From Candidatus Babeliales bacterium (GTDB lineage Bacteria > Babelota > Babeliae > Babelales > Vermiphilaceae), in the NCBI GenBank assembly GCA_963743635.1, contig CAVUQO010000003.1, forward strand, positions 672,001-736,000: DNA of 64,000 nucleotides, written 5' to 3'. The notes beneath the pieces were generated by a model, which worked only from the letters and a program-made list of their open reading frames with translations, was not told the origin of the DNA and made no database searches. Positions 14,335 through 51,394 of the stretch are shown piece after piece (positions within the stretch are counted from its first letter, which is position 1; each line of letters begins with the position of its first letter). A program made the translations under genes and the position numbers.

Positions 14335-15911
14335 CTAGTAAGCAAATCCGCCTTTTGCCCAGACTGCCCATAAAGAACGTGTATTTTTAAGCGGCGGTAA
14401 ATCAGAAGGACGGATGCCTTCAAATTCCACCTCTCCCCCAACACCAAAATATGGCTGCACATTATGCATAGGATCCCATGCATAATTGAGATGCGTGAAT
14501 ATTTTGTGCGTCATTTGGCTTGATGTTGCTGCAGACTGCGGATCAATCTCATTACAGGTCACAAACACGGGAGAATTTTGATCGGCAACAAACATTTGCG
14601 CTTCGAATGGATTTCCATGCAGCGTTGCGGTGCTTTGTGTAACTGAGCTCCAGCTGACTGGCATTCCTGCTTCAACGTTTTGAATGCCTTTGAGTCCAAT
14701 GTGAAGCCAGTTGGCAGGAACAATCATCCAATGATATGAGTTCTCTACTTTTGATCCATCCGTTATAACCGATATCAAATCCAAGATGTCGATGTTGATA
14801 GGCAAACATGAACACAATATCAAATTGTAGATTTGCATTCACATTACAATCAAGAGTGGTGGCATTAATAGTTGGTATTGTGGTGCCGTTATAGTTGCCA
14901 TTTTATCAAATCTTTTTGAAAGAATGTAGCGGCTTCCAAAAGAGGCAAGCGTGTTAAAGCATGGATTGCTATCAAAAAGATCAAATGAGCGTCGTTGAGT
15001 GTCGTTGAAGAAATAGGTTCCATTCATATCAACCTATAAGTTTATGCGTTCATCATCATCTCGTTCCCAAATTAAGGTGTGACTCGTAAAGCAAAGCCCG
15101 AGTTCCCAGAAATGGCCGTTACCAAAATGGGAGTGAAGAAATATTCAGGATTTGGTTTGTTGCCGGTTGGTACTGCGGTACGCAAATGAAATCCAACGTG
15201 ACTTTTTTCATGATTTACAATCAGACCGCCGAGCATAAGAATAAGATCGGAGGCGCCGGTTTGATGTCGTGGGCCATTGATAATGCCGATATTTGAGTGC
15301 TTGCACTTGACCATAACTTACGCCCGCGATTGCTTGATTAAAACTATTTGCGGGTGGTTGGACTGCGTCTACATCCATGTAGAGTGGTGGGAATGGTACG
15401 TTGCCCCCATCGCAAATGACTGTTTCATCAAGACATACTTTCCACGTTGTTGAACCAACGGGCAGAATGGCGCGGAAATAAAAATTGTGATAATCCAACG
15501 AACCAGTCAAAGGTGGCGAGTGTATATGAAATGCTAGGGCGTGGTGCGACTACGCTTTCAAATTTTGGTGAAAGCCCAAAATAATCGGCGAGCATATCAT
15601 TTTGACCACGATCTTCAACCAGACTGCCAGACACGGTAAACGCATCATAACCAAAGAAATATTGCGCTATGCGATTGCGTATTGTAGGTTTTTGCATATT
15701 CGGGTGTGATTGAGAAGTTCGTATAAAAACCTTTACGATCATGACGATATAAAAATTGGCGTGATCCAACAAGATCGCGCGCAGCATTGCATGATGATGA
15801 GCGAGGAACCATAATGGTTTTGCCATATAAGGTGAAATCATCGGTGTGCGTAGTATGCGCATAGAGTATGCCAACAATGATACTGGTAACGCGGATGGTG
15901 GTGAATTTCAT
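14335..15911 (-). CDS. P1: putative outer-membrane beta-barrel family paralog (multiple frameshifts)
   Basis: Fragments carry PRSSSCNAARDLVG, MLADYFGL, HKIFTHLNYAW, PYFGVGGEVEF and the terminal WAVWAKGGFAY; AAGGAG RBS. Confidence 0.75.
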
Positions 15912-15934
15912 AAGCTACTCCTTTATTATCCCTC

Positions 15935-15986
15935 ACCCATTCGCTATTTTTCTCTCCCAGATCGAAAAATCCTCAGGGTGAATGGG
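15935..15986. repeat. Degenerate family-1 REP arm
   Basis: ACCCATTCGCTA...CCTCAGGGTGAATGGG resembles the arm at 6492-6551. Confidence 0.6.
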
Positions 15987-16056
15987 GTTAGTATCAGTTG
16001 CATGGAGCATACTACAGCTTTGCATGTATTAGCTAGAGTGTGCGTTCGATTGAGTA

Positions 16057-17883
16057 TTATTCAAAGGAGAATCCGCCTTTTACCCAAACGCCCCATTGGC
16101 TGATTGATGATTCAAGACAATCATCAAGGATGCATGATGAAAGACAGTCTTTTTTATTGTCTGATATGGAAGTGCATTTTCCGATTTCATATTCACCGCC
16201 AATGCCTAAAAAGAAGGTATAAGTATCATTGTAGTGCCAGTTGTAACTTACATGCGTGAATAACTTATCTGATAATCCTTGTGTGCTACTCAGATCGATA
16301 CTATCAAGGCTTAAAAAGGAGAGGGTTCCTGAAGTATATATTTGTTTGTTATTAATTGCATTTGCTGGAAGAGCCTCACCGCCATCGAATGATGCTTCTG
16401 CTAATATCCGATTATCGACTCCCGCAGTTTTGGAATGAACTGAACACCATCAACGCCGATCGGATAATTATTGGTCCCCGATCGAATTGTTGCTTTGCGT
16501 TCTATTGCTGCAAGTCGAACGGTAGCTTCCGGTTCTGGATGGATCTTTCAACGAAGCCAAAAACATATGCATCTCCTTTGAGCGCCCAAGAATTGCCATC
16601 AAGCCCGGGTGGTTGGCAGCGATCTTTCAAGCGTACATTTTCACATCCTCTAAACCAGTAAGTTATATCCAAAATCCCACGTAAAATTACGGGCGTAGCA
16701 TGATACGGCAAATACAGCATCCGCTTGAAAGTTTGATCCTGCAAATACATTGGCGCGTGGTAATATTTGCGATGGGAGAGAGTTCGTTTTGAAATTCAAA
16801 ATCTGACATTGGAATTCCCGGTTAATTGCGGTTGTTCGCGTGGTTACTGGCGAGACGTTGCGCGAGCATGTACTGACTATTTGGTTTATCAAATAAATCA
16901 AAACAGCGTATTTGCGATGTTTTGAACATGTAGGTGAGGTTTGCAAGTGCATGACCAGTCAGTTTTTTAGTTTGCAGATTCATTTTCCCAAAGCAAGACA
17001 TAAATGTTACCATTCGCGCCCAGTTCCCAATGGTGTCCATTGCCTACAATTGGTTGAAATACATATTCGCCATTAACGTGCGTGCCCGTTGGTATTACGA
17101 CACGCAATGCGATTCCCGCATGATACTCATCATCGCTTACTACATAACTTCCGATATTAATTTGAAGGTCTGCAATATGATGTGCCGTGATGCGGCGCGC
17201 AGTCATTGCTGATTTTGCCGCAGTCAAGTGGATTAAAGACTACCGATTGACCAAGATCTGGTGCGAATCCAGCAAAAAAAGTGCTTGCGTTGTTAAGCAA
17301 ATTGCTGCGATCAACTGCTGCCGGGGTCATATAGAGTGCGGTATAGTTATTAACCCCTGGATTGATGACCGTTTCATCAAAATTCAAGTTCCATTTTGTA
17401 TAGACATATGGTGCATGCACTTGCACGAAAACGATTATGACATTTCCATTTAAATGCTAAAAAAAGATCAAGATCAAGAATGAAGTTTTTTATTTTAGGA
17501 TCAACTGAAATGATACTCTGAAAATCAGTTGGTAATCCGAAATAATCGGCGAGCCAATCATGAGTATTACGTTGCGGGACTTGACTTCCTGAAATTCTAA
17601 TAAATTCCTCACAACTATTTTCAGGATGTTGTAAATCGGGCCCAAAGAGAAGTGATCCGATTGCGTCGCCATTGGTTGATTGCGTGTAGCTTGGTGCAAC
17701 AAAAAAACTGCCATGCCATTCTTCGACGCCATGTTTATACGTGTGTTGGTGCCATCCGGCGAATTCTCGAGCGAGATTGATTCCTTGGGAGCGAAAACCA
17801 AAATAAGGGCTGGTAATATTGGCGGCATGGGCACATGTGCCAGTGGTTAATATTATTGCCATCATTATATGATTGTGCTTCAT
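16057..17883 (-). CDS. P2: putative outer-membrane beta-barrel family paralog (multiple frameshifts)
   Basis: RSQGINLAREFAGW, WLADYFGLPTDF, GNGHHWELG, WALKGDAYV and terminal SQWGVWVKGGFSFE (stop at 16057); GGAGG RBS. Confidence 0.78.
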
Positions 17884-17961: not shown

Positions 17962-19926
17962 TTATCGATATGAGAGGCCAATCTTCAGCCAAAGACCCCA
18001 TTGGCTCATTGCGCAGTCGTGGCAACTTTGGATTCCGCAACATTTGTTTTTATAATTTTTCGGTCTTATTTTTGGTTTACATGCATCGTCCTCACAAGAG
18101 CCATGACTTCCAAATTCTAATTCAGCGCCAAAACCGCAATATGGGAACCAGTATGCTTCTTTTTCAATCTGTGTGTAGTTGACGTTCAGAAACAGTTTAT
18201 TTGAAATGCCTCGTGTACCAGCAAAATCGATCTGAGATTCTTTAATGTAGATCGGATCACTTGAACTGAATGCTTGTAATGCACCAGTGTTTGAGCGACT
18301 CAACACGGGAAGAAATATTCCATCATCTTCGGTGAATGCATACGCAGGGCTATCGGCTGCACTATTAGACGGTTGATCGACATTTCCCCTCGATCCACTG
18401 TGAATCGTTGCTTTGCTATCGGTTGCTGCAAGACGCACGGGAAGTCGATCAGTTGCGGGATTTGTGGCTGTAATAGTTCCTTCAAATCCTACTACGAATG
18501 CATCACCTTTGAGTGCCCAGCTATTTTCTGGAAAGATATCAGTACAGCATGGATCGGGACATATGGTTTCGCAACTTCTGCCCCAAAAGTTGTAACCGAT
18601 ATCTGCTTGAAATCCGCCTGATTGATATTCGAACATTAATGCAATATCAGCTTGCACGTTGATAGTTGAAGTTACCCGCATGCAGGTAATATTGGCAACT
18701 GGTGCAAACGCATTTTGGAATTCAACGCCCGCATTTGCATCACTTGGTTCATAGGCATCACTTGGAAGATAGGGATATGTAGGATTTGTTAATGAAGGGG
18801 TAAGACGCAGCGTTCCCAATTTTTCGGCGAGCATGTATCGGCTATTTGGTTTGCCACATAAATCAAAGGCGCGCATTTGGCGTGCTTTAAGCATATGGGT
18901 AATATATGCTTCCATATAAAAGCCATAACTTGTATTGGTTTCTTCATGAGTTATAAAAAGGAAGTGGCCAGTAATTTGTGCACCGACTTCCCAATGTTTG
19001 CCATTACCGATAATTGGTTCAAATACATATTCACCGCGTGGTCGCGTGCCGGTTGGTGCTGCAGCGAGAGCGCCGATGCCCAGATGATACGTTTCTTTTG
19101 CAAGAAAATTCCAACCAAGGATCATTTGTAGTTCACCAAAATTGTTAGTGACCATTGGCCCGCGGTTGCATTCATTATAGAACTTTGAGCATGATAATGC
19201 CTGCCATGCGAGTTGATTATAAGGCTCATTGCAGGGCATTGGTTGCCATGCAGGACCATCGGGTAATTGTGGTGCGTGTCCGGTAATATAGGCGGTGAAA
19301 TCGGTGTTCAACTGATTGCGCGTGATCGATGATTCGCCATTAAATGGATCATTGGGCATGCGATCTGCGCCGTACCATCCTTGAGGATATGGTTCAATAC
19401 CAAAATTTTCGATTATTTCATTGAAATGTAAGCGGCGACGGTTATGCACGAAAGGGCCTTGAAAGCGTAAATAAAGGCCATCATACCAATTATCAAGACC
19501 AACATAGAGTCCAAAATCAAGAATGAAATTTTCACTCGATGGATTGATTTCAAAGCAGCTCTGAAAATCCAGCGGCAAACCAAAATAGGGAGCAAACCAA
19601 TCTTTTGGGCCGCGATATGGATTGGAGATATCATATCCCGTTACATTGATGATCGATTTGCAACTATCGCATACGATATCATCGCCGAACAAACAACGCG
19701 CAATGTTTCCACCATTGAATGACTGCGTATATTCAGTGGTAACATTGAAACTAAAACTAAGTTCATCTTCCGAAGGGCGATTTATTTCACGATTCCAACC
19801 AACCATATGACGCGCAGCGTTTACCGCTTGTGAGCGGAAAGCAATATAAGGAGCTGGTTGTGCGAGGAATATTGGTGTGTGTGCGAGGATGCACCAAGCA
19901 AGAATAGTGCGATAAAGCGGCTGCAT
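17962..19926 (-). CDS. P3: putative outer-membrane beta-barrel family paralog
   Basis: Intact; signal peptide, RSQAVNAARHMVGW, GNGKHWEVG, GYNFWGRSCE, WALKGD, terminal WGLWLKIGLSYR. ATG 19926 follows AAGGAG. Confidence 0.85.
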   Translation of the reverse strand: MQPLYRTILAWCILAHTPIFLAQPAPYIAFRSQAVNAARHMVGWNREINRPSEDELSFSFNVTTEYTQSFNGGNIARCLFGDDIVCDSCKSIINVTGYDISNPYRGPKDWFAPYFGLPLDFQSCFEINPSSENFILDFGLYVGLDNWYDGLYLRFQGPFVHNRRRLHFNEIIENFGIEPYPQGWYGADRMPNDPFNGESSITRNQLNTDFTAYITGHAPQLPDGPAWQPMPCNEPYNQLAWQALSCSKFYNECNRGPMVTNNFGELQMILGWNFLAKETYHLGIGALAAAPTGTRPRGEYVFEPIIGNGKHWEVGAQITGHFLFITHEETNTSYGFYMEAYITHMLKARQMRAFDLCGKPNSRYMLAEKLGTLRLTPSLTNPTYPYLPSDAYEPSDANAGVEFQNAFAPVANITCMRVTSTINVQADIALMFEYQSGGFQADIGYNFWGRSCETICPDPCCTDIFPENSWALKGDAFVVGFEGTITATNPATDRLPVRLAATDSKATIHSGSRGNVDQPSNSAADSPAYAFTEDDGIFLPVLSRSNTGALQAFSSSDPIYIKESQIDFAGTRGISNKLFLNVNYTQIEKEAYWFPYCGFGAELEFGSHGSCEDDACKPKIRPKNYKNKCCGIQSCHDCAMSQWGLWLKIGLSYR

Positions 19927-20101: not shown

Positions 20102-21631
20102 ATGAATAAATATTTCATATCGCTATTATTCATTTGTATGAGTGTACCTTTAAGTATGTATGCTAGTGATGATCATCAAACGGCGAATGTAGGGCTTGAG
20201 ACGTTGTTCGCTACGAAAGAAGTGTTATTGGACTCGGTGCGTAAAAAAGATAGTTGCAAAAAATTCTGCAATTTATGGATTCGCAATTGTTTGCGTGCGG
20301 CTGCGCTGAAAGTAGATGGTAATGTCCTAGTCGGTGGTGATGTAACCGTGAATGGTACCATTACTGCCAAGACCGCACCTGCGTGTATTTTTGAAGGTGG
20401 TAGCAATGGGCAAGTGTTGCTTGGGGTAACGAATGGCATTCCGGTATTTTCAACCCTGACTTCGCCCAATGACTCTGTTACGTTCTCGCCAGGGGCAGGA
20501 TCGTTAGGAATGAAGTTGAATCCATTCTATGGCAATATCGCACGCGTTGATCAAATATATGGTAATGATACCGGCCCTGATGCTGGATCGGTAAATGGCA
20601 AACCGTTTTTAACTCTCGGTGCCGCACTAACTCATGCAGGCGCATATGCCACCCCGACTACCCCGGTGGTCGTCTGGGTGTTTCCCGGTACCTATAATGA
20701 ATCAATTACCATTCCTAATAATGTAAGCCTTGTTGGACTATCCGCTGGGGGTGCTGCAGGGGTTGGCGGTGTTACGATTCAGCAAGTAAATGCTGCTACA
20801 ACGTTAGTAACTATGGGGCAGAATTCGTTCATTGAAAATGTGAATCTACAATTAACGGGTACAGCTTCCCTCACGGGCATTGCGATACCAACGGGGCCTG
20901 CCACTATTAAGTGTATCAAATTAAATGTAAGTAATGGGACACCCACCACTACATACGGAATTTTGGTTTCGGGGGATACCACAATAGATTCATCTATCAT
21001 CAACTCTAATGCATTTGGCATCTACGTTGACGCAGCCGTTTCTGGAACGATAAGCAATAGCATTGTGACGAGCAGTGGAGGTATTGCATTAGAAACCAAC
21101 AATGCAGGAGCATTATTCATTGCAAATGCATCAACTCTTAATGGAGCTACTGCAGATATATCACAAACTTTAGGTACGATAACGCTGGAAGATACTAGGC
21201 TTTTCAATTCAACGGCCAATGGCCTTAACTTTACGAGTACCATTTCACCTTCCACCCTCACGTGGGCCTCGACGGGAACTGTTTTGACAAATGCAAACCC
21301 GAACTATATGGTTCCAGGAACTGGAGCTGTCGCCACGACTACGGCAGCCGGTTTTGGGTATGTTATTCCGCAGCAATTAGTGGTTAGAAATTTGCAGGTA
21401 AAGGCACTGACGGGCCCAGGTGGAGTTACGACTACTTTTACGCTCTATAAAAATGGGGCGGCGATTCTCCCTGTTACACTGAGTGCTTCTATGACGGGTA
21501 CTGGTTCGCAAACTGTAGAAGATCTAACGCATAGCGTAACGTGCGCGCCCGGAGATGTTCTTTCGATGCAAATAGATAATCCTCTAACATCGACGCTTGC
21601 TAATGTAATGGTAGGCGTAGAGGTATATTAA
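20102..21631 (+). CDS. A1: secreted right-handed beta-helix (pectin-lyase-like) protein, putative adhesin
   Basis: Signal peptide; RVDQIYGND...GKPFLTLGAAL and VVVWVFPGTYNESITIPNNVSLVG resemble a beta-helix cap; T/S/G/N-rich coils; beta-sandwich-like C-terminus. Confidence 0.75.
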   Translation: MNKYFISLLFICMSVPLSMYASDDHQTANVGLETLFATKEVLLDSVRKKDSCKKFCNLWIRNCLRAAALKVDGNVLVGGDVTVNGTITAKTAPACIFEGGSNGQVLLGVTNGIPVFSTLTSPNDSVTFSPGAGSLGMKLNPFYGNIARVDQIYGNDTGPDAGSVNGKPFLTLGAALTHAGAYATPTTPVVVWVFPGTYNESITIPNNVSLVGLSAGGAAGVGGVTIQQVNAATTLVTMGQNSFIENVNLQLTGTASLTGIAIPTGPATIKCIKLNVSNGTPTTTYGILVSGDTTIDSSIINSNAFGIYVDAAVSGTISNSIVTSSGGIALETNNAGALFIANASTLNGATADISQTLGTITLEDTRLFNSTANGLNFTSTISPSTLTWASTGTVLTNANPNYMVPGTGAVATTTAAGFGYVIPQQLVVRNLQVKALTGPGGVTTTFTLYKNGAAILPVTLSASMTGTGSQTVEDLTHSVTCAPGDVLSMQIDNPLTSTLANVMVGVEVY

Positions 21632-21656: not shown

Positions 21657-23266
21657 ATGAATAAACGTAGTGTATCAGTCTTAATAATGTGTCTAGGCAT
21701 CGCTATATGTTTGCCGTCATCGGCCAATCCAACAGACGATCAAATCGCGCGTGCAATCAGCGGAGAATTACCGTTTGCAGAACACGATGCATCGGATGTA
21801 GTCCGTAAAAAGAAGAAACGTTGGAAGAAATTGTGCGATGTAATTGTTAGTAAATGCTTAAGGGCAGGCGCGCTTAAAGTAGATGGTAATCTCGTGATTG
21901 ATGGTAACTTAACAGTAAATGATCTTTTGATTAATCACGCAGTAGCGTGCACTATCACGGGTGGTCTTGATGGGCAAGCATTGATAGGGTCAACTGGTTC
22001 AAATCCGGTTTTTAATTTCATAACTTCAGATTCTCATCACTCGGTTACTTTTTCTCCGGGTTCTGGATCGTTGGGTCTTGAAGCGGTAGCATTTTTTGGA
22101 AACGTAGCGCGCGTCGATCAAATATATGGTAACGATGCTACGGGTCTTGTGGGTGGAGCGCCATTTGCAACGATTACTGCAGCATTGGCTGCTGCGGGAA
22201 CCTATACTACGATATATGGTGATCCGGTAGTAGTATGGGTATTTCCCGGGGTGTATAGTGATACTGCATATTCTCCCGAAACGTTTCCCCTTAATATTTC
22301 CAATAACGTAAGTCTTGTAGGCATAGCAGCGGGTGCTCGCCCTGATGTTGGTGGGGTTACGATTCAGCAGCTCAGCGCTGCGGGGACGTCAACGTTAATC
22401 ACCATGGGGGTGGATACATTACTTGCAAATGTATCTTTACAACTGAGTACCACGAACAATGTTGCCCTTACGGGAATTTCTATTGCCACCGGACCTGCAA
22501 CAATTGATTCTATAGATTTAAATGTGAGTGCAGAATCAGGATCGGCAAATGCATATGGCATTCATGGTACCGGCGCAGCAACCATAGAGGATTCTGTAAT
22601 TACGGTTTCATCAACGGGAACTCAGGCGACGGCGGGTATTTTAGTTGATACTGCCAACGCCATCATGATGAGCAATAGCACTATAATGGTAACGAATACT
22701 GGGGGGGGAGCGCTGTAGGTGCAGAAACCAATAATGCCAGTGCATCATTCATTGCAAACGCATCAAGTGTGAGTGGTACTACTTCAGACATTTCACAACT
22801 TGCAGGGTCCATAATGCTTGCAGGCACAACGCTGGCGCACTCAACGGCAAATAATGGTTCATTTGCTAGTGCCTTTTCTCCTACCTTGCTTGTTTGGAAT
22901 TCACACACTGGGACCGGCACTGTACTTACTGGCACCAATTATATGGTGCCGGGAACTGCTGCGGTGAGCGCCTCCAATCCAGCTAATTTTGGGTATATTA
23001 TACCGCAGCAATCAATTGTAAGGAATTTACATGTGTATGCAGAAGAAGCTCCTGGTACAGGAAGAACTACTACCTTTACCTTATATAAAAATGGATCTGT
23101 AACTTCATTGACAACGTCTCTGAGTGGCACGGTGACTGCTAATAATGATCCTACTCATAGCGTATTATGCGAGGCTGGCGATGTACTTTCAATGCAGCTG
23201 ATTAATCCTTCATCGGGCACAGGATCTTCTTTGGGTAATATTTCGGTAAATGTAGAATTATATTAG
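21657..23266 (+). CDS. A2: paralog of A1, split by a frameshift at a G8 tract (22701-22708)
   Basis: Same motifs as A1 and A3; homology continues as AVGAETNNASASFIANAS in the next frame; G9 would restore the frame. Confidence 0.75.
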
Positions 23267-23328
23267 CGCTTAGTACATATAGTATATGTTTGATATGTGC
23301 GAAAAAGTGGTTTAAAAAGGAGCGTATT

Positions 23329-37044: not shown

Positions 37045-37097
37045 TCGAACAACTCCTAGAATTGAGGATGGATGATATGTTTTTTATTGACTACATC

Positions 37098-37137
37098 ATC
37101 CTAGAACAAGTAAGTTTTTTTTTCTAGAGTTTTTTTT
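37098..37137 (-). promoter_or_regulatory. Shared paralog promoter motif upstream of P8
   Basis: AAAAAAACTC-TAGAAA-N17-TAGGAT with an A9 tract. Confidence 0.6.
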
Positions 37138-37166
37138 ATTTTGTCTAAAATATGCGAGGAAATAGT

Positions 37167-37195
37167 AAAGCCCCCAACTTTCGTCGGGGGCTTTT
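37167..37195 (-). terminator. Terminator of P9
   Basis: AAAGCCCCC...GGGGGCTTTT. Confidence 0.7.
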
Positions 37196-37219
37196 GCGTA
37201 CCATCAAACGCTTTGTGCA

Positions 37220-39320
37220 TTAATTATAAGAAGTACCGATCTTGAACCATACGCCCCATTGGGTGAGCGCAACGTTGGTGCAGCATGGTTTGAGTGTTGA
37301 GCAAACGTTTGCTGCAGGATTCGGGTTGTAATTATAGTTGCAAGGACTGCATACAGTTTCGCAGCTTGTGCTACAACCAGTATTGCAACTTGTGCTACAA
37401 TCATTATTGCAGCTTTCATTGCTTCCACCGCCAAATTCAACTTCAGCACCGATGCCAACATACGGAGTCCATTTGCTATCCTTCATATCAGGCCGTGCAT
37501 AATTGAAATGCATGAACAACTTATTTGAGATACCGCGTGTGCCGAGTAAATCAAAATCATTTTCACTGATTAGCACAGGTTGATTAGAGGTATAGATGGC
37601 TGGAGGAAAGACGTCCGAGTTTGTAGGGTTTGGGAGAATATATGTTGGATTATTTTTAAGTGATTGACTATTGTCTGCATAAAAGTTCACTGGCGCTGTA
37701 GGGTTTGTGCCGGTATAGGCAACATTATGCGCCATATTTGAACCAGTATGTATCGTTGCTTGACTGTCAGTTGCCGGAAGGCTCATGGCAAGAGCAGTAT
37801 CAACAAGAACTTTGTTGGTAAAACCATAGACGCGTTGATCGCCCTTAAGTGCCCATTGGCCGATCGCTGGTGCGCAGCAATCATTGTTCAAGCGCAACTG
37901 TTCGCAGCTTCTGCCCCAGAAGTTATAGCCAAGATCGAATTGGAAATTACCTGATTGGTATGCGAAGCTGAATCGCTAAATCGCCTTGTGCGCCAATGGT
38001 AGAGGTAACATTGTGGCGGGTGATATTTGCAACCGGTGCATACACATTGGCAAATTCTAATCCAAGAGAATCATAAAGCTGCCCACCGCCAGTGCCAAGC
38101 GTAGTATCATTTAATCCTGGATAGCTATTGCGGTTGTCATGCAGCTTTTCAGCTAACATATAGCGGCTATTATTACCTGCTGAGCAAAGATCAAAGCAAC
38201 GGATTTGGTGTGCACCAAAAAGATGCGTCACATTTGCTTCAAGATACATGCCGAAGCTTCTATCATCTTCTTCATTTCTCCAGCCGATATAATGCGCCGT
38301 TACTTGCCCACCAAGTTCCCAGTGTTTACCGTTACCTACGATTGGCTCAAAAAGATAGCGTCCACTGCTATTGCAATCATCTTGACTGCCAACGCGTGTG
38401 CCAGTCGGTGCACCAACGTAAAGGCCAAGGCCTGCATGGTAATCGCCTGCATCATCGTTTACGAAATTGTAACCGAGTACGAAGCGAAGTTCGCCAAAGC
38501 CATTACGAGAAAGGCCTTGTCCATCACAGCCGCATTCAGGACTAATTTTGCTGCAGCAGAGTGATTGCCAGGTGATATCACCAAGTGGTGAGCAAGTTCC
38601 GTTTTCAGTCCGCGGACCAAATGGGAAAGTTCCTGCGAGACAATACTCTTCACCATACAAATCATAATCATTGTTGATTTCAGGCACCGCGCCATTTGCA
38701 TAGCTCAAGAAGCTTTGGTTAAGTTGCGAAGCTGGCACCACGGCGCTTGAGAAATAGCCTTGGAAGTAACCAGTAGTTCCAGTCGTAATATTGCATTCTT
38801 GTGCATTCAAATTCCACTGAGTATGCACGAATGGTCCATAGATCTTGAAGTACATGCCTTCATGCCATGAATCAAGCCCTGCATAGAAACTGAAATCGAG
38901 AATGTAGTTACTAATACTTGGCTTAAATGAAACGGTACTTTGAAAGTCGCGCGGTAATCCGAAATAATCAGCTAACCAATCATTTGCACCACGATTTGCT
39001 ACTGCAGAACCGCTGATATGGATTGATGAGCCTTCATCGCAGGTGCCGCATATGAGATCATCGCCAAAGAGCGATCGTGCCAGACGATTGTCTCTGAATG
39101 TGCGTGAATATTCAAACGTTATATTGAAACTGCCGTAATCATCGTCTTGCGGTTTACGGTTGATGCCCCAGAACGGATTATCCCATCCGACAATCTGACG
39201 TGCTGCGTTAAAACTTTGTGATCGTGGGACGATTTTTGACGTGGTTGCAGTATTACCAGTGAGGTTCACTGCACTTACTAATGCGGTAATGCATAGTAAT
39301 TGTTTGTTTAGTTGCTTCAT
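37220..39320 (-). CDS. P9: Cys-rich putative beta-barrel paralog (one frameshift near 37970)
   Basis: Two ORFs join at GDLAI|SFAYQSG; AAGGAG RBS before ATG 39320. Confidence 0.83.
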
Positions 39321-39528
39321 CAGACAACTCCTTTTATTGATGGTTGACAATATGCTTTTGATAGTACGTGATGATCATATACAGGTTTCGAATTTTATTG
39401 CTACATTTTTTTTGAATTACTCAGTCTCGCTATGCTCTCTCCTCGGGCGAATTGGGAAATAATACTTTTTTGAAGAGCAATGCTCTTTATCTTTGCTTAG
39501 ATTCTGGCGAGGTTAAATATATATCAGT

Positions 39529-39562
39529 AAAAGAAACCTCCGACTTTCATCGGAGGTTTCTT
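39529..39562 (-). terminator. Terminator of P10
   Basis: AAGAAACCTCCGA-CTTTCA-TCGGAGGTTTCTT. Confidence 0.75.
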
Positions 39563-39612
39563 AGTACTTAGTTTTGCTTGCGTTTGCGTTCAATTATAGA
39601 GAACAAACACTA

Positions 39613-41670
39613 TTAATTATAAGATGTACCAATCTTAAACCATACGCCCCATTGGCTGAGTGCGATGTTTGAGCAGCAGGTGCTGATAACTGGGCATGGC
39701 GTTGTGTTGCATGCTGGTGCAGGTGTGCAGCTGGTTTCGCAGCCGGTATTGCAACCAGTGTTGCAACTGGTGCTGCAGCCATTATCGTATCCACAGCCAT
39801 TATTGCATTTTTTTCCGCCGCCACATTCTGCTTCAAAACCGATACCAACGTATGGAGTCCACTTGCTGTCTTTCACTTCTGGCCATGCATAGTTAAAGTG
39901 GGTAAAGACTTTGTTTGAGATACCGCGAGTACCTGCAAGATCAAAATCATTTTCTTGAATTAGCACTGGTTGTTCAGAAGTGTAGATACCAACTGTTCCG
40001 AGTGGGTATGTGGTGATAGTAGAAAGGGTACCAACGTGAGCAAGAGACAAGCTATTATCAGCATACAAGTTTTTTGGCTGAGTTGGTACTTGGCCAGCAT
40101 AGCTCACATTGTTTGCCAGATTTGAACCGGTGTGGATGTTTGCTTGGCTATCAGTTGCAGGTATGCTGATAGCGAGTGATGTTCCGTGTGCACCACCATT
40201 GGTAGCGAAACCATACACGCGTTGGTCACCTTTAAGTGCCCATTGACCTTGTATGCCTAAGCAGCAATTATCCTCAATGCGCAGTTTTTCGCAGCTGCGG
40301 CCCCAGAAGTTGTAACCAAGATCCCATTGGAAGTTACCCGATTGGTATGCAAAGCTGATCGCTAAATCACCTTGAGCACCAATTGATGAAACTACATTGC
40401 GGCGAGAGATATTTGCAACGGGTGCATATTCCTTTGCAAATTCTAGACCAAGGCTATCAATGGTTGCGGCGTGGGTTGGGAAAGTAGCCGCGTTAAGTCC
40501 TGGATAGCTATTGCGATTTGAATCAAGGCGTTCAGCTAACATGTAGCGGCTATTATTGCCCGCTGAGCAAAGATCTAAGCAGCGAATTTGGCACGCGTCG
40601 AAAAGATGCGTTACGTTCGCTTCAAGATACATTGTAAAGCTCTTGTCATTCGCATCATTTCTCCACCAGACTTGGTGAGCAGTTATTTGACCGCCAAATT
40701 CCCAGTGTTTACCGTTACCAACGATTGGTTGGAATAAGTAACGTCCTTCGCCATTGCAATCATCGCTACCAACGCGTGAACCGGTTGGTGCTGCCGCGTA
40801 TGCGCCAATACCAATATGGTAATCGCCTGCTTCATCATTTATGAAATTGTAGCCGAGTACGAAACGAAGTTCGCCAAAGCCATTGCGAGACATGCCTTGT
40901 CCTTCACAGCAAGATTCAGGGCTGATTTTGCTGCAGCAGAGTGATTGCCACGTGATATCACCAAGTGGTGAGCAGGCTGGGTGGAGTGTGTAACATGTAT
41001 CTTCACCATACAAATCATAATCATTGTTGATGTACGGCGTGCAACCATTTGCATAGCTCAAGAAGCTGCTGTTAAGCTGTGATGCAGGAACGGTGTTGCT
41101 TGAGAAATACCCTTGGAAGTAACCAGTAGTTCCTTGCGTGATTGGACATTCTTCAGCATTCAAATTCCATTTAGTGTGTACAAAAGGTCCGTAGATCTTG
41201 AAGTACATACCATCAACCCATGCATCGAGGCCAGCGTAGTAGCTGAAATCGAGAATGTAGTTAGTGATTGTAGGTTTGAATGAAACGGTACTTTGGAAAT
41301 CACGTGGAAGTCCAAAATAATCCGCTAACCAATCATTTTCTCCACGATTTGCTACTGCAGAACCGCTAATTTGGAGTGATGAACGATCATCGCATTCATT
41401 GCAATTTAAATCATCACCAAAGAGTGCGTATGCAATACGGTTAGCTCTGAATGTGCTTGAATATTCGAATGCGATATTAAAGCTTGAATAGAATTCACCT
41501 TCTGGTTTACGGTTAATACCCCACTCCATATTATCCCATCCGACGATTTGACGTGCAGCGTTAAAACTTTGCGATCGGGGAACAATATTAGTTACGGTTC
41601 GCTCACCAAAAAGGTGAGTTGCGCTTACTAAAGCAGTAAGGCACAATAATTGTTTTTTTAGTTGATTCAT
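39613..41670 (-). CDS. P10: Cys-rich putative outer-membrane beta-barrel paralog
   Basis: Intact; start MNQLKKQLLC after AAGGAG; CSTSCNTGCNTGCETSC tract. Confidence 0.85.
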   Translation of the reverse strand: MNQLKKQLLCLTALVSATHLFGERTVTNIVPRSQSFNAARQIVGWDNMEWGINRKPEGEFYSSFNIAFEYSSTFRANRIAYALFGDDLNCNECDDRSSLQISGSAVANRGENDWLADYFGLPRDFQSTVSFKPTITNYILDFSYYAGLDAWVDGMYFKIYGPFVHTKWNLNAEECPITQGTTGYFQGYFSSNTVPASQLNSSFLSYANGCTPYINNDYDLYGEDTCYTLHPACSPLGDITWQSLCCSKISPESCCEGQGMSRNGFGELRFVLGYNFINDEAGDYHIGIGAYAAAPTGSRVGSDDCNGEGRYLFQPIVGNGKHWEFGGQITAHQVWWRNDANDKSFTMYLEANVTHLFDACQIRCLDLCSAGNNSRYMLAERLDSNRNSYPGLNAATFPTHAATIDSLGLEFAKEYAPVANISRRNVVSSIGAQGDLAISFAYQSGNFQWDLGYNFWGRSCEKLRIEDNCCLGIQGQWALKGDQRVYGFATNGGAHGTSLAISIPATDSQANIHTGSNLANNVSYAGQVPTQPKNLYADNSLSLAHVGTLSTITTYPLGTVGIYTSEQPVLIQENDFDLAGTRGISNKVFTHFNYAWPEVKDSKWTPYVGIGFEAECGGGKKCNNGCGYDNGCSTSCNTGCNTGCETSCTPAPACNTTPCPVISTCCSNIALSQWGVWFKIGTSYN

Positions 41671-41851
41671 AAGAATAACTCCTTTTTGCAAGAACATATT
41701 TTCAGGGAAATGGACCCTCGCGTTATCGTGTGCGAGCAATTTCCACGGTTAAATGAATACAATCTCCTTTCTTTGGTTAATTTTGGTCATGATTAATTTT
41801 TGTTCACTGTATACCTTCTTAACAAGTTATGAATTTTTTTTCTAGAGTTTT
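41671..41851 (-). promoter_or_regulatory. Promoter motif plus conserved double-SD leader of P10
   Basis: TAGAAA-N17-TAAGAA with an A8 tract; GAAAGGAG; GGAAAT..CTCGC..GCGAG..ATTTCC stem. Confidence 0.6.
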
Positions 41852-41958
41852 GTAAAAGAATATTGATTGGGTCGTTCAATTGGATGAAATATTGAAATAT
41901 ATTTTTGCGTATGATAGAAGGCTGTGAGTGCCGTTGCACAGAACATAAAGAGCCCGCG

Positions 41959-42254
41959 CCCTTCGATACGCGCGTGCCATGCTACCTAAGGATGAGATGA
42001 ATATTATGATAACGCGAACTCGATCTAAGGAATTCACATTAAGTCATGCTTTTTATAATAGAAATAGCCATTGGAATATTAGCTTTCGCGTTAGGCAATC
42101 ATGCCTTTAAATGAAACTAATCCGCACTATAATTAAAGGGCCCCCGATTTTCATCGGAGGCTCTTTTTAGTACTTCGTTTTGGTTGCTTTCTTATAATTA
42201 ATTATAAGATGTAACCGCTCATCCCGAGTAGCGCGGGACGTGCGTACCGAGGGG
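41959..42254. repeat. Degenerate family-1 REP doublet enclosing the P11 terminator
   Basis: CCCTTCGATACG...GGATGAG (41959-41996) and CCGCTCATCCCGAG...CGTACCGAGGGG (42215-42254); the latter abuts the P11 stop. Confidence 0.7.
42135..42168 (-). terminator. Terminator of P11
   Basis: AAAGGGCCCCCGA-TTTTCA-TCGGAGGCTCTTT. Confidence 0.65.
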
Positions 42255-44249
42255 TCAATTGTATGATGTACCAACTTTGAACCATACACCCCATTGGCTG
42301 AGGGCTACGTTCGAGCAACAGTTGTTGCTTGAGCAAGTGTTGATTGAGCAATTGTTGTTGTAATAGCCAGTATTGCAACCGGTATTGCACGTTGTGTTGC
42401 AACCAGTGTTGCAGCTTGCTTCACAACAATCATTGTCGCGGCTTGAACCAAATTCAACTTCAGCACCTACGCCAACATAGGGAGTCCATTTACAATCTTT
42501 ATCACGATCAGCCCATGCCCAGTTCAAGTGAGTGAAGATTTTATTTGAGATACCACGGGTACCAGTCAAATTGAAATCACATTCACTAATCATCACCGGC
42601 TTTTCAGAGGTGTAGATTTGGGTGCTGTTTAATGGAAGATTAGTGATGGTACTAGTATCAGTATTTATGAAACCACCAAATGCAGCTGTTGGATTATCCC
42701 CATAGAAGTTGGTTGGGTTAGAATCGATGGTGTAGTTAGCGCCATTGCAAAGGTTTGAACCAGTATGGATATTTGCTTGGCTGTTAGTTGCAGGAATGCT
42801 CACTGCAAGACTGCCATCAAAACCATACACTCGTTGGTCGCCCTTTAGAGCCCATTTGCCAATCGGTTGTGCACAACAATCATCTTGGATGCACAAGTTT
42901 TCACAGCTTCTGCCCCAGAAGTTGTAACCAAGATCCCATTGGAAGTTGCCTGAGCGGTATGCAAGGGTGAACGCAAGGTCCCCTTGTGCGCCGATTGTTG
43001 AGCGTACTTCTCTGCGAGTAATGTTTGCAACGGGAGAGTATTGGTTGCCAAATTGAAGACCAAGGCTATCAGTAGTAGTGTTTAAAAGAGGTGTGCTATT
43101 GGTGTTTGAATTCAATAATTCTGCTAACATATAGCGGCTATTGCTGCCTGCTGAACACAGATCAAAGCAACGTGTTTGGTTTGCACCAAAAAGATGCGTT
43201 ATGTCTGCTTCAAGATACCAGCCAAAGCTCTTATCTCCATCTTCACTTTCCCACCAGCGATGATGCGCCGTTACTTGTGCGCCAAGTTCCCAATGCTTAC
43301 CGTTACCCACGATAGGTTGGAATAAATAGCGTCCTTCGCCATTGCAATCATCAGTGCCTACGCGCGTACCAGTTGGTGCAGCAACGTAGATACCGATACC
43401 AACGTGATATTTGCCATCTTCATCATTCAAGAAGTTGTAACCAAGGATAAAGCGAAGTTCGGCAAAACCATTTGCGCTTGCGCCGCCGCATTCGCAATCA
43501 TTGCTGATTTTGCTGCAGCAGAGTGAGTTCCAAGTAATGCTACCCAGTGGAGAACAATCTTCGTCGTCTAGGCAGTAAGTTTGAAGACCATAAGTGTTAT
43601 CATTATTAATTGATGGAACGCAACCGTTAGTATAATTCAAGAATTTGGTATTCAGGTTTGCAACCGGAACTGTGTTGCTTGAGAAGTAACCTTGGAAATA
43701 TCCCATTGATCCTGCATTGCTTACACATTCTTCTGCATTTAAATTCCAGCGTGTGTGTACATAAGGACCATAGATCTTGAAGTAAAGACCATCAACCCAG
43801 TTATCAAGGCCAGCATAGAAACTAAAATCTAAAATGTAGTTGGTGATGCTTGGTTTGAAAGTGACAGTACTTTGAAAATCCATTGGGAGTCCGAAATAAT
43901 CAGCCAACCATGCATTGTTTGGTCTGCTTGGTACTGCAGAACCGCTGATTTGAATTGCCGATGCATCATCGCATACGCCGCAAATTAAATCATTACCGAA
44001 GAATGCATAGGCCAGGCTATTATCTCTGAAGGTGCGTGAATATTCAAATGCGAGATTGAGGCTTGCATACCATTTATCTTCAGGTTTGCGATTGATACCC
44101 CAGTTCACGTCATCCCAACCAACTATTTGGCGAGCTGCGTTAAAACTTTGCGAGCGAGGAACGATATTTGTGGTCGTGCCATTACCCATGAGGGTTACTG
44201 TGCTGATGAGCGCAGTGAGGCACATTAATTTTTTACTGAGATGATTCAT
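42255..44249 (-). CDS. P11: Cys-rich putative outer-membrane beta-barrel paralog
   Basis: Intact, 664 aa; CNTGCNTTCNTGCNTG tract; ends WGVWFKVGTSYN. Confidence 0.85.
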   Translation of the reverse strand: MNHLSKKLMCLTALISTVTLMGNGTTTNIVPRSQSFNAARQIVGWDDVNWGINRKPEDKWYASLNLAFEYSRTFRDNSLAYAFFGNDLICGVCDDASAIQISGSAVPSRPNNAWLADYFGLPMDFQSTVTFKPSITNYILDFSFYAGLDNWVDGLYFKIYGPYVHTRWNLNAEECVSNAGSMGYFQGYFSSNTVPVANLNTKFLNYTNGCVPSINNDNTYGLQTYCLDDEDCSPLGSITWNSLCCSKISNDCECGGASANGFAELRFILGYNFLNDEDGKYHVGIGIYVAAPTGTRVGTDDCNGEGRYLFQPIVGNGKHWELGAQVTAHHRWWESEDGDKSFGWYLEADITHLFGANQTRCFDLCSAGSNSRYMLAELLNSNTNSTPLLNTTTDSLGLQFGNQYSPVANITRREVRSTIGAQGDLAFTLAYRSGNFQWDLGYNFWGRSCENLCIQDDCCAQPIGKWALKGDQRVYGFDGSLAVSIPATNSQANIHTGSNLCNGANYTIDSNPTNFYGDNPTAAFGGFINTDTSTITNLPLNSTQIYTSEKPVMISECDFNLTGTRGISNKIFTHLNWAWADRDKDCKWTPYVGVGAEVEFGSSRDNDCCEASCNTGCNTTCNTGCNTGYYNNNCSINTCSSNNCCSNVALSQWGVWFKVGTSYN

Positions 44250-44426
44250 AAGAATAACTCCTTTTAGTATGAAAACATGTTAGGGAATTGGTAACAGATG
44301 TTACGCAGTTGAAATTGAGTACGTGTTACTCGATAGGGTCTCCTTTCTTTTTTTTTAATAATTTTTTATTACAAATGTCATTGACCCATACACTACTATC
44401 TTTGAATTTTTTTTTCTAGAGTTTTT
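44250..44426 (-). promoter_or_regulatory. Promoter motif plus diverged double-SD leader of P11
   Basis: TAGAAA-N17-TAGTGT with an A9 tract; GAAAGGAG upstream SD; two small hairpins. Confidence 0.55.
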
Positions 44427-44588
44427 AAAATTTTCTTGATCTGATCGCTCATCCGAGAGGTGAAAGTGTTGTAAGTAAGGGAATAATCGGCTCAGGCGAA
44501 TTTTTATTTTTGCTATGATTGATCTACTGCGGCGGTTGGAGGAGTCGATTTTTTTGATTTTTGATCATGAATGAAGTTTGAAGAGAAT

Positions 44589-44627
44589 AAAAAAGAAGGC
44601 CTCTTGCAATTACAAGAGGCCTTCTTT
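44589..44627 (-). terminator. Terminator of P12
   Basis: AAAGAAGGCCTCTTG...CAAGAGGCCTTCTTT. Confidence 0.8.
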
Positions 44628-44650
44628 AAATATGATATTGATCGGACAAG

Positions 44651-46495
44651 TTAGTTGAACGTGAATCCACCTTTAACCCATACTCCCCAGAAACAAGTGC
44701 TGCATTCAACGCATTCGCCGCAACATGCAGATCCAGTGGGTGGTACTTGTGGAACGATTGGATTTCTATTTTCGCAACCTTTCTTGCCAAATTCTACTTC
44801 GCCACCGACGCCAAGATAGGGAGTCCAATCTTCACATTCGAGCCATGAATAGCTGACGTGTGTGAAAAATTTATTTGATAATCCTTTGGTGCCACTCAAA
44901 TCAAGATCGCATTCCTTGATAAAGATTGGTTGGATTGAAGTGCTGGTTTGATTATACGGATATATATCGGGAGGCGTCATATTTGCTGCATATAATGGAT
45001 TATTTGCGCCCATATCTGCATAGTCACCGGTTGCCTTTAATGCGTTATCTACCATTGAGTTTAAACCATCGAGCGATCCATTGGTTCCTTCATGGATAGT
45101 GGCATAGCGTTCGGTAGCAGAGAGCGCAATGGGCCCTGTGGCATAACTATCATCAAAGCCAAACACGAATGCATCACCCTTGAGCGCCCACGTTCTGCCA
45201 TTCAGATTATCAGGTGCGCAGCCTTCACGCAGTGAGATTTTTTCGCACGTGACTCCCCAAAAATCGTATCCGATATCAAAAGAGAAATTATTCGAAATGC
45301 AAGTGATGGCAACGAGTGCATCAGCTTGAACGCCGACCGCTACGGAAACATCTGCTTGGGTAATGTTCGCAACCGGAGAATATTGTTGTTTGAATTGATA
45401 CATTGCTGGTGTTGAGTATCCGGTAACAGGATCTTCACCGCCTAAATTATTAAACACGGGCACTGCTAATTTTTCAGCAAGCATGTAGCGGCTGTTCGGT
45501 TGTCCGCACAAATCAAAACAGCGTGTTTGATGCGCATTAAACATATGAGTAATGTTAGCAACAATTTGTATTGATGCATGGCTATGATCATCCATGCTAT
45601 GCCAGAATGTATATGCGCCGGTTAGGTTGCCACCAACTTCCCAATGTTTTCCGTTACCTACAATTGGTTTGAAAAGGTAGCTTGCATTAGGTCGTGTGCC
45701 GGTTGGGGCTGCAATACGCAGGCCAATTGAGCAGTGGTATTCATCAGAATTGGTAACTGAATAACCAAGAATTCCTTGTATTTCAGCAACGCCGGTTTCG
45801 GTTTGAGGTCCACAGTCAGTTGGGAAGCGTGAGCAGGCAAGCTCATCAAATTGCACATTGTTGTTGAGTGCTGGTTTGTTGCCTTTCATATAAGAAGTAA
45901 CGCTTTGAAGCATATTGTTGGGCGTCACTACTGATGGAGTGAAATAACCTGCAGGATAGAATCCATCATTGCTTCCACTATTGCGTACAATTTCCTTAAA
46001 CCGCAGATCCCAGCGTGTGTGGACGACCGGTATATGGAATCTAAAGAAAAGCCCGGGAACGAATTCATCAAAGCCAAAGAAGAAATTGAAATCAAGAATA
46101 TAATTATCAATAAAAGGATCAAATTGGAGTGTGCTTTGAAAATCGGTAGGAAGACCAAAATAGTCAGCGAGCCAATCACGCGACCCACGATTTTCGACGC
46201 TGCTGCCGGATACATTGATGAAACCACCGCAATCATTAAATCCGACTAAACTATTTTGAAATAGGCATTGTGTTATATCATTTGGTCTGAACGAGCGACT
46301 ATATTCGAAGGTTACGTTTGCGCTGCCATAAAGTTTGTCTTGATCTGGTATAAATATGTATTGTTGCCATCCGACATATTCACGTGCAGCGTTTTCGCTT
46401 TGTGATCGGATGGAATAGTATGTTACGGCATGAGCAGTCTGGAAACCGATCATAAGCAATGAAATACTAATAAGGGTGCGTGCTTGATGTGTCAT
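44651..46495 (-). CDS. P12: putative outer-membrane beta-barrel family paralog
   Basis: Intact, 614 aa; RSQSENAAREYVGW, WLADYFGLPTDF, GNGKHWEVG; ends WGVWVKGGFTFN. Confidence 0.85.
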   Translation of the reverse strand: MTHQARTLISISLLMIGFQTAHAVTYYSIRSQSENAAREYVGWQQYIFIPDQDKLYGSANVTFEYSRSFRPNDITQCLFQNSLVGFNDCGGFINVSGSSVENRGSRDWLADYFGLPTDFQSTLQFDPFIDNYILDFNFFFGFDEFVPGLFFRFHIPVVHTRWDLRFKEIVRNSGSNDGFYPAGYFTPSVVTPNNMLQSVTSYMKGNKPALNNNVQFDELACSRFPTDCGPQTETGVAEIQGILGYSVTNSDEYHCSIGLRIAAPTGTRPNASYLFKPIVGNGKHWEVGGNLTGAYTFWHSMDDHSHASIQIVANITHMFNAHQTRCFDLCGQPNSRYMLAEKLAVPVFNNLGGEDPVTGYSTPAMYQFKQQYSPVANITQADVSVAVGVQADALVAITCISNNFSFDIGYDFWGVTCEKISLREGCAPDNLNGRTWALKGDAFVFGFDDSYATGPIALSATERYATIHEGTNGSLDGLNSMVDNALKATGDYADMGANNPLYAANMTPPDIYPYNQTSTSIQPIFIKECDLDLSGTKGLSNKFFTHVSYSWLECEDWTPYLGVGGEVEFGKKGCENRNPIVPQVPPTGSACCGECVECSTCFWGVWVKGGFTFN

Positions 46496-51388: not shown

Positions 51389-51394
51389 GGGTAT

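What the first reader, a model, noticed from the sequence alone, without database searches (positions are those of the whole stretch)
14335..46495. Tandem array of 12 paralogous, Cys-rich putative outer-membrane beta-barrels: a candidate variable surface-coat locus
Seen: twelve co-oriented ~1.6-2.1 kb genes share the ordered motifs RSQSxNAARxxVGW, LADYFGLPxDF, DFxxYxGL, GNGKHWExG, CFDL..NSRYMLA, APVANIT, GYNFWGRSCE, WALKGD, SNKxFxH, PYxGxGxEVEF and terminal WGxWxKxGxx(Y/F)x. All have Sec signal peptides. The central copies P4-P11 are closest to each other (WGINR, GTSYN ends), while P1, P2 and P12 end in KGGF, which fits birth-and-death expansion from the middle. Established: alternating aromatic/hydrophobic strands with an aromatic last strand typify BAM substrates, and expanded porin-like families occur in intracellular bacteria (chlamydial MOMP-like proteins, Anaplasmataceae Msp2/OMP-1). 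Inference: this is the major surface protein family of a protist parasite. I cannot assign it to a named family.
Basis: partly seen in the sequence, partly recalled or inferred. Interest (0 to 1): 0.9.

Follow-up and report, generated by a model that had tools for sequence, protein, structure and literature searches.

The report
Capped outer-membrane barrel array in Babelota
Twelve tandem genes of a protist-parasitic bacterium encode plugged outer-membrane channel-type proteins with a large, variable, cysteine-rich outer cap, members of a family found throughout this little-known phylum that probably makes up much of its cell surface.

Summary
The array is real: twelve minus-strand paralogues. 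Eight are intact ORFs. Four are frameshifted, mostly by assembly errors, and three opposite-strand genes interrupt the array. [quoted passage not shown] Its best matches are COG4313 channel Pput2725 (Z 22.6) and FapF (Z 22.5), and it shares their PTG motif. It is not MOMP, FadL or a TonB-dependent receptor. About 350-400 residues of loops form an extracellular cap; the largest contiguous part has no PDB match. The cap holds 89% of the cysteines and most of the variation. The family occurs in 201 of 201 Babelota genomes, usually as a tandem array beside the same cell-wall genes, with genome-specific expansions (13 copies in one relative). Cysteine richness is lineage-specific, mostly low where LPS genes remain. 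Best reading: a repertoire of separately transcribed surface proteins; the rival is lipid uptake. Abundance and function are untested. It is not first seen here: Pagnier 2015 listed seven Babela members, annotated as beta-propellers, and this scan noted the family on other DNA (e1-5157602).

The parts
14335..15911 (-). P1, family copy, broken as assembled (about 9 frameshifts, one possible in-frame stop); pseudogene or assembly error not settled
   Evidence: no reads laid here
16057..17883 (-). P2, family copy, about 11 frameshifts, no in-frame stop, 74% identical over full length to an intact 607-aa relative (P0175); probably intact in the organism
17962..19926 (-). P3, intact copy (654 aa from the ATG with a ribosome-binding site; ORF extends to GTG at 20022)
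20102..21631 (+). inserted secreted protein 1, weak beta-helix match; shares an RKK..C motif with the next two
   Evidence: (PF13229 E 0.007, below cut-off)
21657..23266 (+). inserted secreted protein 2, in two ORFs (21657-22718, 22769-23266)
   Evidence: (DUF1565 E 1.9e-6)
23290..25212 (+). inserted secreted protein 3, weak pectinesterase-type beta-helix match
   Evidence: (PF01095 E 0.009, below cut-off)
25339..27291 (-). P4, intact copy
27376..29358 (-). P5, intact copy
29894..32026 (-). P6, intact copy
32432..34513 (-). P7, intact copy
34948..37044 (-). P8, recent duplicate of P9 (85% nucleotide identity); 7 frameshifts, no in-frame stop; short-read contigs show indels against the window here
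37220..39320 (-). P9, one frameshift near 37967, otherwise full length
39613..41670 (-). P10, intact copy
42255..44249 (-). P11, intact copy
44651..46495 (-). P12, intact copy, 614 aa, the one modelled: signal about 1-23, N-terminal plug segment about 24-55 (helix 36-40), 12 strands, six outer loops
29430..44424 (-). six copies of an A-rich upstream element, one before each of P5, P6, P7, P8, P10, P11 (at 29444, 32207, 34754, 37132, 41850, 44424) and nowhere else in the genome; terminator-like hairpins follow most copies
11437..12864 (+). gltX, conserved left flank (followed by a broken acyl-transferase, fabD-like)
46633..52315 (+). bacA/uppP, ftsK (frameshifted in the assembly), a Mur ligase and rsmH, conserved right flank
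62976..64000 (+). start of a further family copy outside the array (592 aa, runs past the window end; a second copy follows)

Best explanation
Each gene encodes a Sec-exported, BAM-inserted outer-membrane protein. It is a 12-stranded barrel of COG4313/FapF type, with an N-terminal segment in the plug position and six outer loops (about 400 of about 665 residues) that fold into a surface cap. Shown by computation: fold, topology, cysteine placement, variation concentrated in the cap, phylum-wide presence, a conserved locus and repeated genome-specific duplication. Inferred: the pore is mostly closed, and the proteins serve mainly as abundant surface proteins that cover and stabilise an LPS-less outer membrane and contact the protist host. 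The intact, separately transcribed paralogues would give a repertoire used in different hosts or stages, in the manner of the Ehrlichia p28-omp locus. Confidence in the fold is about 0.95; the value below is for the functional reading.
For: AF2 pLDDT 92.7, pTM 0.91, 12 long amphipathic strands. Top structural matches Pput2725 (Z 22.6, rmsd 2.9, 259 of 267 residues) and FapF (Z 22.5, rmsd 2.8, 256 of 276) among 48,161 chains. Present in 201 of 201 phylum genomes. Beside bacA/ftsK/mur/rsmH in 12 of 13 relatives fetched and beside gltX in 7 of 13 (regions were picked for their tandem hits). Copies cluster largely by genome; P4-P11 form one clade, support 100 (FastTree only). Non-synonymous divergence is 0.15-0.20 in strands against 0.30-0.46 in loops L5/L6, and indels lie almost only in loops (4 pairs). 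185 of 207 Cys of the 8 intact copies lie in outer loops. Own upstream element and terminators. LpxC not found in G000 or in 0 of 36 same-family genomes. VKOR and secreted thioredoxin-like proteins are present in G000. About 2.5% of the genome encodes this family (rough sum).
Against: There are no expression or abundance data; no RNA run was listed. Codon bias is nearly absent (S 0.06): only P7, P6, P11 and P10 rank 19, 31, 60 and 64 of 662, while P3, P4 and P12 are average. No loop shows pN above pS, so there is no sign of positive selection, though synonymous sites are saturated. The PTG region is among the most conserved parts, which suits a retained transport function. A Pal-like lipoprotein exists in G000 and an OmpA-type domain in 99 of 101 genomes, so the membrane does not lack a tether. 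Other outer-membrane proteins exist, including a Legionella-MOMP-family one. Plug position and disulfides were not measured on coordinates, which I could not access.
Confidence: 0.5

Rival explanations
1. They are uptake channels for hydrophobic host molecules (fatty acids, sphingolipids, sterols), like SphA and TcpY. The cap captures the ligand, the PTG region is the lateral exit, and paralogues differ in substrate.
For: Closest fold is the COG4313 channel. P264 150/150, T265 129/150 and G266 147/150 lie at the base of loop beta5-beta6, where Pput2725 has its proposed lateral gate (PMC4493636). No FadL over cut-off in 0 of 101 genomes. TM6 genomes lack lipid biosynthesis (PMC4776705 abstract). 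plsX and a fabD-like gene lie near the left flank.
Against: The family is equally present in lineages without LpxC, where such channels are less needed. Ordinary ~300-aa PF13557 proteins occur separately in some Babelota. Rapid genome-specific copy turnover and variable loops are not typical of nutrient channels (own knowledge). FapF keeps PTG although it is not needed for its export (PMC5557850), so the motif does not show import.
Confidence: 0.25
2. They build a disulfide-cross-linked coat like chlamydial MOMP in the outer-membrane complex (first reader; earlier finding e1-5157602).
For: 2.9-4.7% Cys. Odd Cys counts in the outer loops of 5 of 8 copies leave possible free thiols. Family f8 members carry 15-17 Cys in an N-terminal, periplasm-side extension. 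Cys content is 0.13-0.76% in 5 of 6 LpxC-positive genomes and 1.6-5.0% in 7 of 8 LpxC-negative ones (kin are not independent).
Against: MOMP is a 10-stranded trimer that cross-links through periplasmic and intramembrane Cys (PMC13254160). Here only 5 of 207 Cys are periplasmic and 8 transmembrane. One LpxC-negative genome has 0.32% Cys and one LpxC-positive genome 4.4%. DsbB over cut-off in 0 of 101, DsbA-type in 2 of 101, VKOR in 27 of 101, and only 2 of 13 in the very Cys-rich f8.
Confidence: 0.12
3. They are FapF- or autotransporter-like secretion pores for neighbouring adhesin-like proteins (beta-helix, collagen-like).
For: FapF ties for best fold match. A conserved Lys in the last strand (K608, 144/150) and plug Gly42 (141/150) recall FapF K401 and G101 (matched by spacing only). 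Three beta-helix-like genes sit inside this array.
Against: Genes with that motif lie inside the array in only G000 and G027 of 14 genomes examined. The plug Glu is present in only 62 of 150. The modelled N-terminus leaves no room for FapF's coiled coil. No C39 peptidase appears among the window proteins scanned. A large folded cap would obstruct export (inference).
Confidence: 0.08
4. The array is an antigenic-variation system with silent pseudogene cassettes recombining into an expression site, as for Anaplasma msp2 (recalled).
For: Four copies look broken; P8, P9 and a distant copy share exact runs of up to 89 nt.
Against: The breaks are frameshifts without in-frame stops (P1 possibly excepted), and short-read contigs show indels against the window in P8 and in single-copy ftsK. 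Intact copies share at most 36 identical nt and have saturated synonymous sites. All copies are full length with their own signals.
Confidence: 0.05

Closest known systems
COG4313 / SphA / PF13557 outer-membrane channels (Pput2725, PDB 4RL8)
   Same: 12-stranded barrel, N-terminal segment before strand 1, PTG at the base of loop beta5-beta6; Z 22.6, 259 of 267 residues aligned
   Different: 500-710 aa instead of 270-320; folded extracellular cap; Cys-rich loops; tandem arrays; 11% identity; PF13557 mostly below cut-off
FapF amyloid secretion pore (PDB 5O65)
   Same: 12 strands, helical plug segment, PTG, Lys in the last strand; Z 22.5; top Foldseek hit, E 9e-9
   Different: no periplasmic coiled coil, no fap-like operon, large cap; trimer not tested
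Babela massiliensis 'family 6' (Pagnier et al. 2015, PMC4378268)
   Same: same family: seven secreted proteins whose supplement rows show the RSQ..ARELVGW, FGL and PTG..FEP.GNG.HWE motifs (read by eye)
   Different: called 'beta-barrel, LDL-receptor-like' in the text and 'beta-propeller' in the supplement; not placed in the outer membrane or linked to COG4313; Cys cluster N-terminal there, in loop L6 here
Chlamydial MOMP and MOMP-like expansions (PMC13254160; 37 copies in Simkania per PMC6490308)
   Same: non-permeable barrel with folded variable cap in an intracellular bacterium; expanded family; cysteines
   Different: 10 strands, shared trimer cap, periplasmic and intramembrane Cys; no sequence match
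Ehrlichia p28-omp locus (PMC7971322)
   Same: tandem intact paralogues (22) of an outer-membrane barrel, expressed differently by host
   Different: unrelated, much smaller proteins; host-dependent expression is shown there and only inferred here

Membership tests
COG4313/PF13557 (SphA, Pput2725) | 12-stranded outer-membrane barrel | tested here: met
   (predicted model)
COG4313/PF13557 (SphA, Pput2725) | N-terminal segment occluding the lumen | tested here: inconclusive
   model residues from 36 align to 4RL8 residue 2 and helix 36-40 precedes strand 1; coordinates could not be inspected
COG4313/PF13557 (SphA, Pput2725) | PTG motif at the base of loop beta5-beta6 | tested here: met
   P 150/150, T 129/150, G 147/150; a looser pattern matched 24 of 58 in the divergent subfamily A3 within a fixed residue window
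COG4313/PF13557 (SphA, Pput2725) | PF13557 score over the curated cut-off | tested here: inconclusive
   0 of 8 array copies over 22 bits, best 20.3; four long-ORF relatives reach it on the PTG stretch only; profile-profile probability 0.4% and 1.5% against a 16-sequence set
COG4313/PF13557 (SphA, Pput2725) | mature length 270-320 aa with short loops | tested here: not met
   614-710 aa, about 400 residues in outer loops
COG4313/PF13557 (SphA, Pput2725) | uptake of hydrophobic molecules | not testable with these tools
   needs a transport assay
FapF | periplasmic N-terminal coiled coil | tested here: not met
   about 30 residues between signal peptide and strand 1
FapF | fap operon with amyloid subunits and C39 peptidase | tested here: not met
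   none among 34 window proteins scanned; neighbourhoods of 13 relatives show housekeeping flanks (not scanned against Pfam)
FapF | trimer | not tested
   three copies exceed the complex-prediction size limit
Chlamydial MOMP | 10-stranded barrel | tested here: not met
   12 strands against PMC13254160
Chlamydial MOMP | periplasmic or intramembrane cysteines for inter-molecular cross-links | tested here: not met
   5 periplasmic and 8 transmembrane of 207 Cys in the 8 intact copies; family f8 differs
FadL / TonB-dependent receptors | 14- or 22-stranded barrel | tested here: not met
   12 strands; FadL Z 12.8-13.8, FecA Z 8.5
Beta-propeller / LDL-receptor-like (2015 annotation) | beta-propeller fold | tested here: not met
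   the model is a long-stranded barrel whose best matches are outer-membrane barrels; modelled on P12, not on a Babela protein

The most novel reading that the evidence does not exclude
An ancestral COG4313-type channel was turned, at the base of Babelota, into the phylum's signature surface protein with a cap of an unsolved fold. In lineages that lost LPS it was lengthened, loaded with disulfides and multiplied at one cell-envelope locus into an accordion-like array that replaces LPS as the protective outer layer and sets which protists can be infected.
Probability: 0.25. Interest if true: 0.85.

Novelty: new variant of a known kind. Interest (0 to 1): 0.6.

Why it matters
Babelota are widespread obligate parasites of protists. 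Their outer membrane is described as degenerate and their host range is undefined (PMC4776705, PMC12172432). This family is present in every genome sampled and varies by lineage, so it is the obvious candidate for the main surface and host-contact protein. Named genomes of described members carry it (Babela massiliensis; Vermiphilus pyriformis, locus L053), so the question can be tested directly. The work also corrects the published beta-propeller annotation and shows a COG4313/FapF-type barrel carrying a cap larger than the barrel itself.

Tried and rejected
Sequence searches of PDB: one chance hit with A1, none with A2. NCBIfam: none. Plasmids: none. Rfam: only a tRNA in the window. The cap segment (residues 326-535, pLDDT 93.1) gave no match with Z 2 or more among 48,161 chains and no Foldseek hit at E 0.001; this does not prove a new fold, and the segment includes two barrel strands and lacks loops L1, L2 and L6. 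Profile-profile comparison with ordinary PF13557 proteins was not significant. No RNA holder was listed; this says nothing about expression. The codon-bias test was nearly uninformative. Promoter and terminator scans gave chance-level counts, 48 vs 47.7 and 16 vs 17.5, so only the long hairpins and the six-copy upstream element are relied on. The IQ-TREE run did not finish; the tree is FastTree only and omits P1 and P2. The metagenome scan with P3 found only three distant loci. 'The membrane lacks any tether' was dropped. A fixed partnership with the beta-helix genes was rejected. No complex prediction was run. Restriction to Babelota was not tested properly: only the best hits were listed, some records carry other submitter labels, and Atlas neighbours of about 410 aa are commonest in Bdellovibrionota. 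Literature searches listed no paper linking this family to COG4313/FapF; subscription papers and bioRxiv supplements were not searchable.
Full report
Observation. The window lies in G000:C3:672001-736000, a 1.45-Mb, 85%-complete genome. Named homologues are Ca. Dependentiae/Babeliales, including Vermiphilus pyriformis, so this is phylum Babelota. Twelve minus-strand paralogues lie between 14335 and 46495. Eight are single ORFs of 614-710 aa, 40-68% identical to each other. Three plus-strand genes with weak beta-helix matches interrupt the array between P3 and P4. Seven more family loci lie elsewhere in the genome.

The broken copies. P1, P2, P8 and P9 carry about 9, 11, 7 and 1 frameshifts. 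P2, P8 and P9 have no in-frame stop and are 74-79% identical to intact relatives over their full length; P1 has one possible stop at only 35% identity. Contigs from 4 runs of 2 studies were laid on 30000-49950. In runs X1 and X2 they show six indels against the window in P8 and six in the single-copy ftsK region, at or near full depth; 3 more rows were not shown. ftsK is itself frameshifted in the assembly. The breaks are therefore most likely long-read errors. Caveats: contigs of near-identical paralogues can map onto P8, one run may be the source sample, the P9 break was not among the rows shown, and P1/P2 were not covered.

Fold. With a 150-sequence alignment, AlphaFold2 gave P12 a mean pLDDT of 92.7 and pTM 0.91, with twelve long strands and a short helix at 36-40. 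The strands alternate hydrophobic and polar residues. Among 48,161 chains the best matches were Pput2725 (COG4313; Z 22.6, rmsd 2.9, 259 of 267 aligned, 11% identity) and FapF (Z 22.5, rmsd 2.8), then KdgM 19.8 and autotransporter barrels about 18. FadL scored 12.8-13.8 and FecA 8.5. Foldseek ranked FapF first, E 9e-9. The PTG motif that both solved proteins have at the base of loop beta5-beta6 (PMC5557850, passages; PMC4493636, parts 1-3 of 5) lies at the same place here: P 150/150, T 129/150, G 147/150. Weak PF13557 hits fall on this stretch, and the nearest named Atlas clusters carry PF13557 on 12-21% of members. Sequence-level membership is not reached: 0 of 8 copies pass the cut-off, and profile comparisons gave 0.4% and 1.5%. 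The proteins are best called distant structural relatives, not ordinary members.

The cap. Outer loops make up about 400 residues per copy and hold 185 of 207 cysteines in the 8 intact copies; 5 are periplasmic and 8 transmembrane. In the 150-sequence set the outer share is 75%. The segment 326-535 folds confidently alone (pLDDT 93.1) and matches nothing in the PDB. In 4 paralogue pairs non-synonymous divergence is 0.15-0.20 in strands, 0.30-0.40 in L5 and 0.36-0.46 in L6; indels lie almost only in loops; synonymous sites are saturated and pN never exceeds pS. Loop L3 with PTG is among the most conserved parts.

Distribution and history. The profile matches 201 of 201 phylum genomes and 2,330 representatives at E 0.001. 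Of 13 relatives whose tandem regions I fetched, 12 have copies beside bacA/ftsK/mur/rsmH, 7 beside gltX, and 6 between both in one stretch, as here. Array sizes run from 2-3 to 13, so twelve is at the top of the range but not unique. In an 88-row FastTree most copies group by genome: P3-P11 form a clade (99), P4-P11 another (100), and the youngest are P8, P9, a distant copy, P10 and P11. Concerted evolution could give a similar tree, but intact copies share at most 36 identical bases. Most copies have a terminator-like hairpin and a strong ribosome-binding site, and an A-rich element occurs 6 times in the genome, each upstream of an array copy. This points to separate transcription units.

Cysteines and LPS. 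Cysteine richness is an add-on. It sits in loop L6 in this family, in an N-terminal extension in family f8, and is low or nearly absent in f2, f5, f10 and f18, where L6 is 7-8 residues. LpxC was found in 12 of 101 genomes, only in f6, f10 and f12. Family Cys content is 0.13-0.76% in 5 of 6 LpxC-positive genomes (one has 4.4%) and 1.6-5.0% in 7 of 8 LpxC-negative ones (one has 0.32%) (only copies in fetched loci, kin not independent). This agrees with reports that Babeliales mostly lack LPS genes (PMC4776705, passages; PMC6561590, passages). G000 has VKOR and secreted thioredoxin-like proteins, but the phylum shows no DsbB over cut-off (0 of 101) and VKOR in only 27 of 101. A preprint found no outer-membrane tether in ten Dependentiae genomes (10.1101/2021.05.31.446380, one passage). 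However, an OmpA-type domain occurs in 99 of 101 genomes, and in G000 it is a Pal-like lipoprotein, so I do not argue that this family replaces a tether.

Mechanism. Most likely (0.5) these are plugged barrels that display a variable cap, abundant on the surface, with paralogues used differently by host or stage. The analogy is the 22-gene Ehrlichia p28-omp locus (PMC7971322, passages) and, in architecture only, chlamydial MOMP (PMC13254160, passages; PMC6490308, passages). Rivals: uptake of host lipids (0.25; conserved PTG, no FadL in 101 genomes), a disulfide-cross-linked coat (0.12), FapF-like secretion (0.08) and recombinational antigenic variation (0.05). The first two readings are not exclusive. 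Abundance, oligomer state, disulfides and ligand are all unmeasured; codon bias gave only a weak hint for four central copies.

Prior knowledge. Pagnier et al. 2015 (PMC4378268; passages; supplement rows) describe seven large secreted Babela proteins with a Cys-rich N-terminus and a beta-barrel, likened to LDL receptors and annotated as beta-propellers in the supplement. The printed sequences show this family's motifs (judged by eye). This scan also recorded the family in another genome (e1-5157602), with a MOMP-like reading. PMC12172432 and PMC6744442 were seen as passages and do not discuss it. My searches listed no paper assigning the COG4313/FapF fold or the conserved locus. The label msp2 and the general traits of nutrient channels are recalled.

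Verdict. A real, phylum-wide, poorly described outer-membrane protein family: a new variant of the COG4313/FapF-type barrel with a large unmatched cap. The twelve-gene array is a large example of a common arrangement. Interest 0.6.

Noticed in passing
L134:1-645 (G000:C3:106853-107497): Pal-like lipoprotein (lipobox, OmpA-type domain); the domain is found in 99 of 101 Babelota genomes although a preprint reported no outer-membrane tether in this phylum.
   Followed up: partly
window 20102-25212; G000:C3:173334-175544; G000:C2:185973-188174: Five secreted proteins share an RKK..C..CNL motif before a beta-rich region; three lie in the array and one 5.4 kb from a distant family copy; short proteins with the motif lie in the G027 array.
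   Followed up: partly
L004:10705-13320: BamA with five POTRA domains lies 3 kb from the most divergent family copy; a second Omp85 protein and TamB are elsewhere in G000, and in L001 an Omp85 gene directly neighbours a family member.
   Followed up: partly
window 47394-49861 and 12764-13785: ftsK and the fabD-like gene are frameshifted in the assembly; short-read contigs show indels against the window in ftsK, so gene-loss calls in this genome are unreliable.
   Followed up: yes
phylum-wide: LpxC is confined to three of 14 families sampled (12 of 101 genomes), a clean split of LPS-bearing and LPS-less Babelota.
   Followed up: partly
G000:C2:193449-193817; L135, L136, L137: VKOR and three thioredoxin-like proteins, at least two with likely signal peptides, may form the disulfide pathway; DsbB was not found over cut-off in 101 genomes.
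   Followed up: partly
L038:632-1933: A 433-aa opposite-strand ORF lies inside the 13-copy array of G198; its start looked reverse-transcriptase-like by eye, not verified.
   Followed up: no
L122:1-1041; L126:1-1971: G000 also encodes a Cys-containing Legionella-MOMP-family protein and an autotransporter.
   Followed up: no
window 32030-32130, 34515-34615, 41672-41772: P6, P7 and P10 share a conserved 5' leader with a possible hairpin ahead of the ribosome-binding site; no Rfam match.
   Followed up: no
window 57294-57881; 52750-52821: A SET-domain protein and a tRNA gene lie downstream of the array.
   Followed up: no
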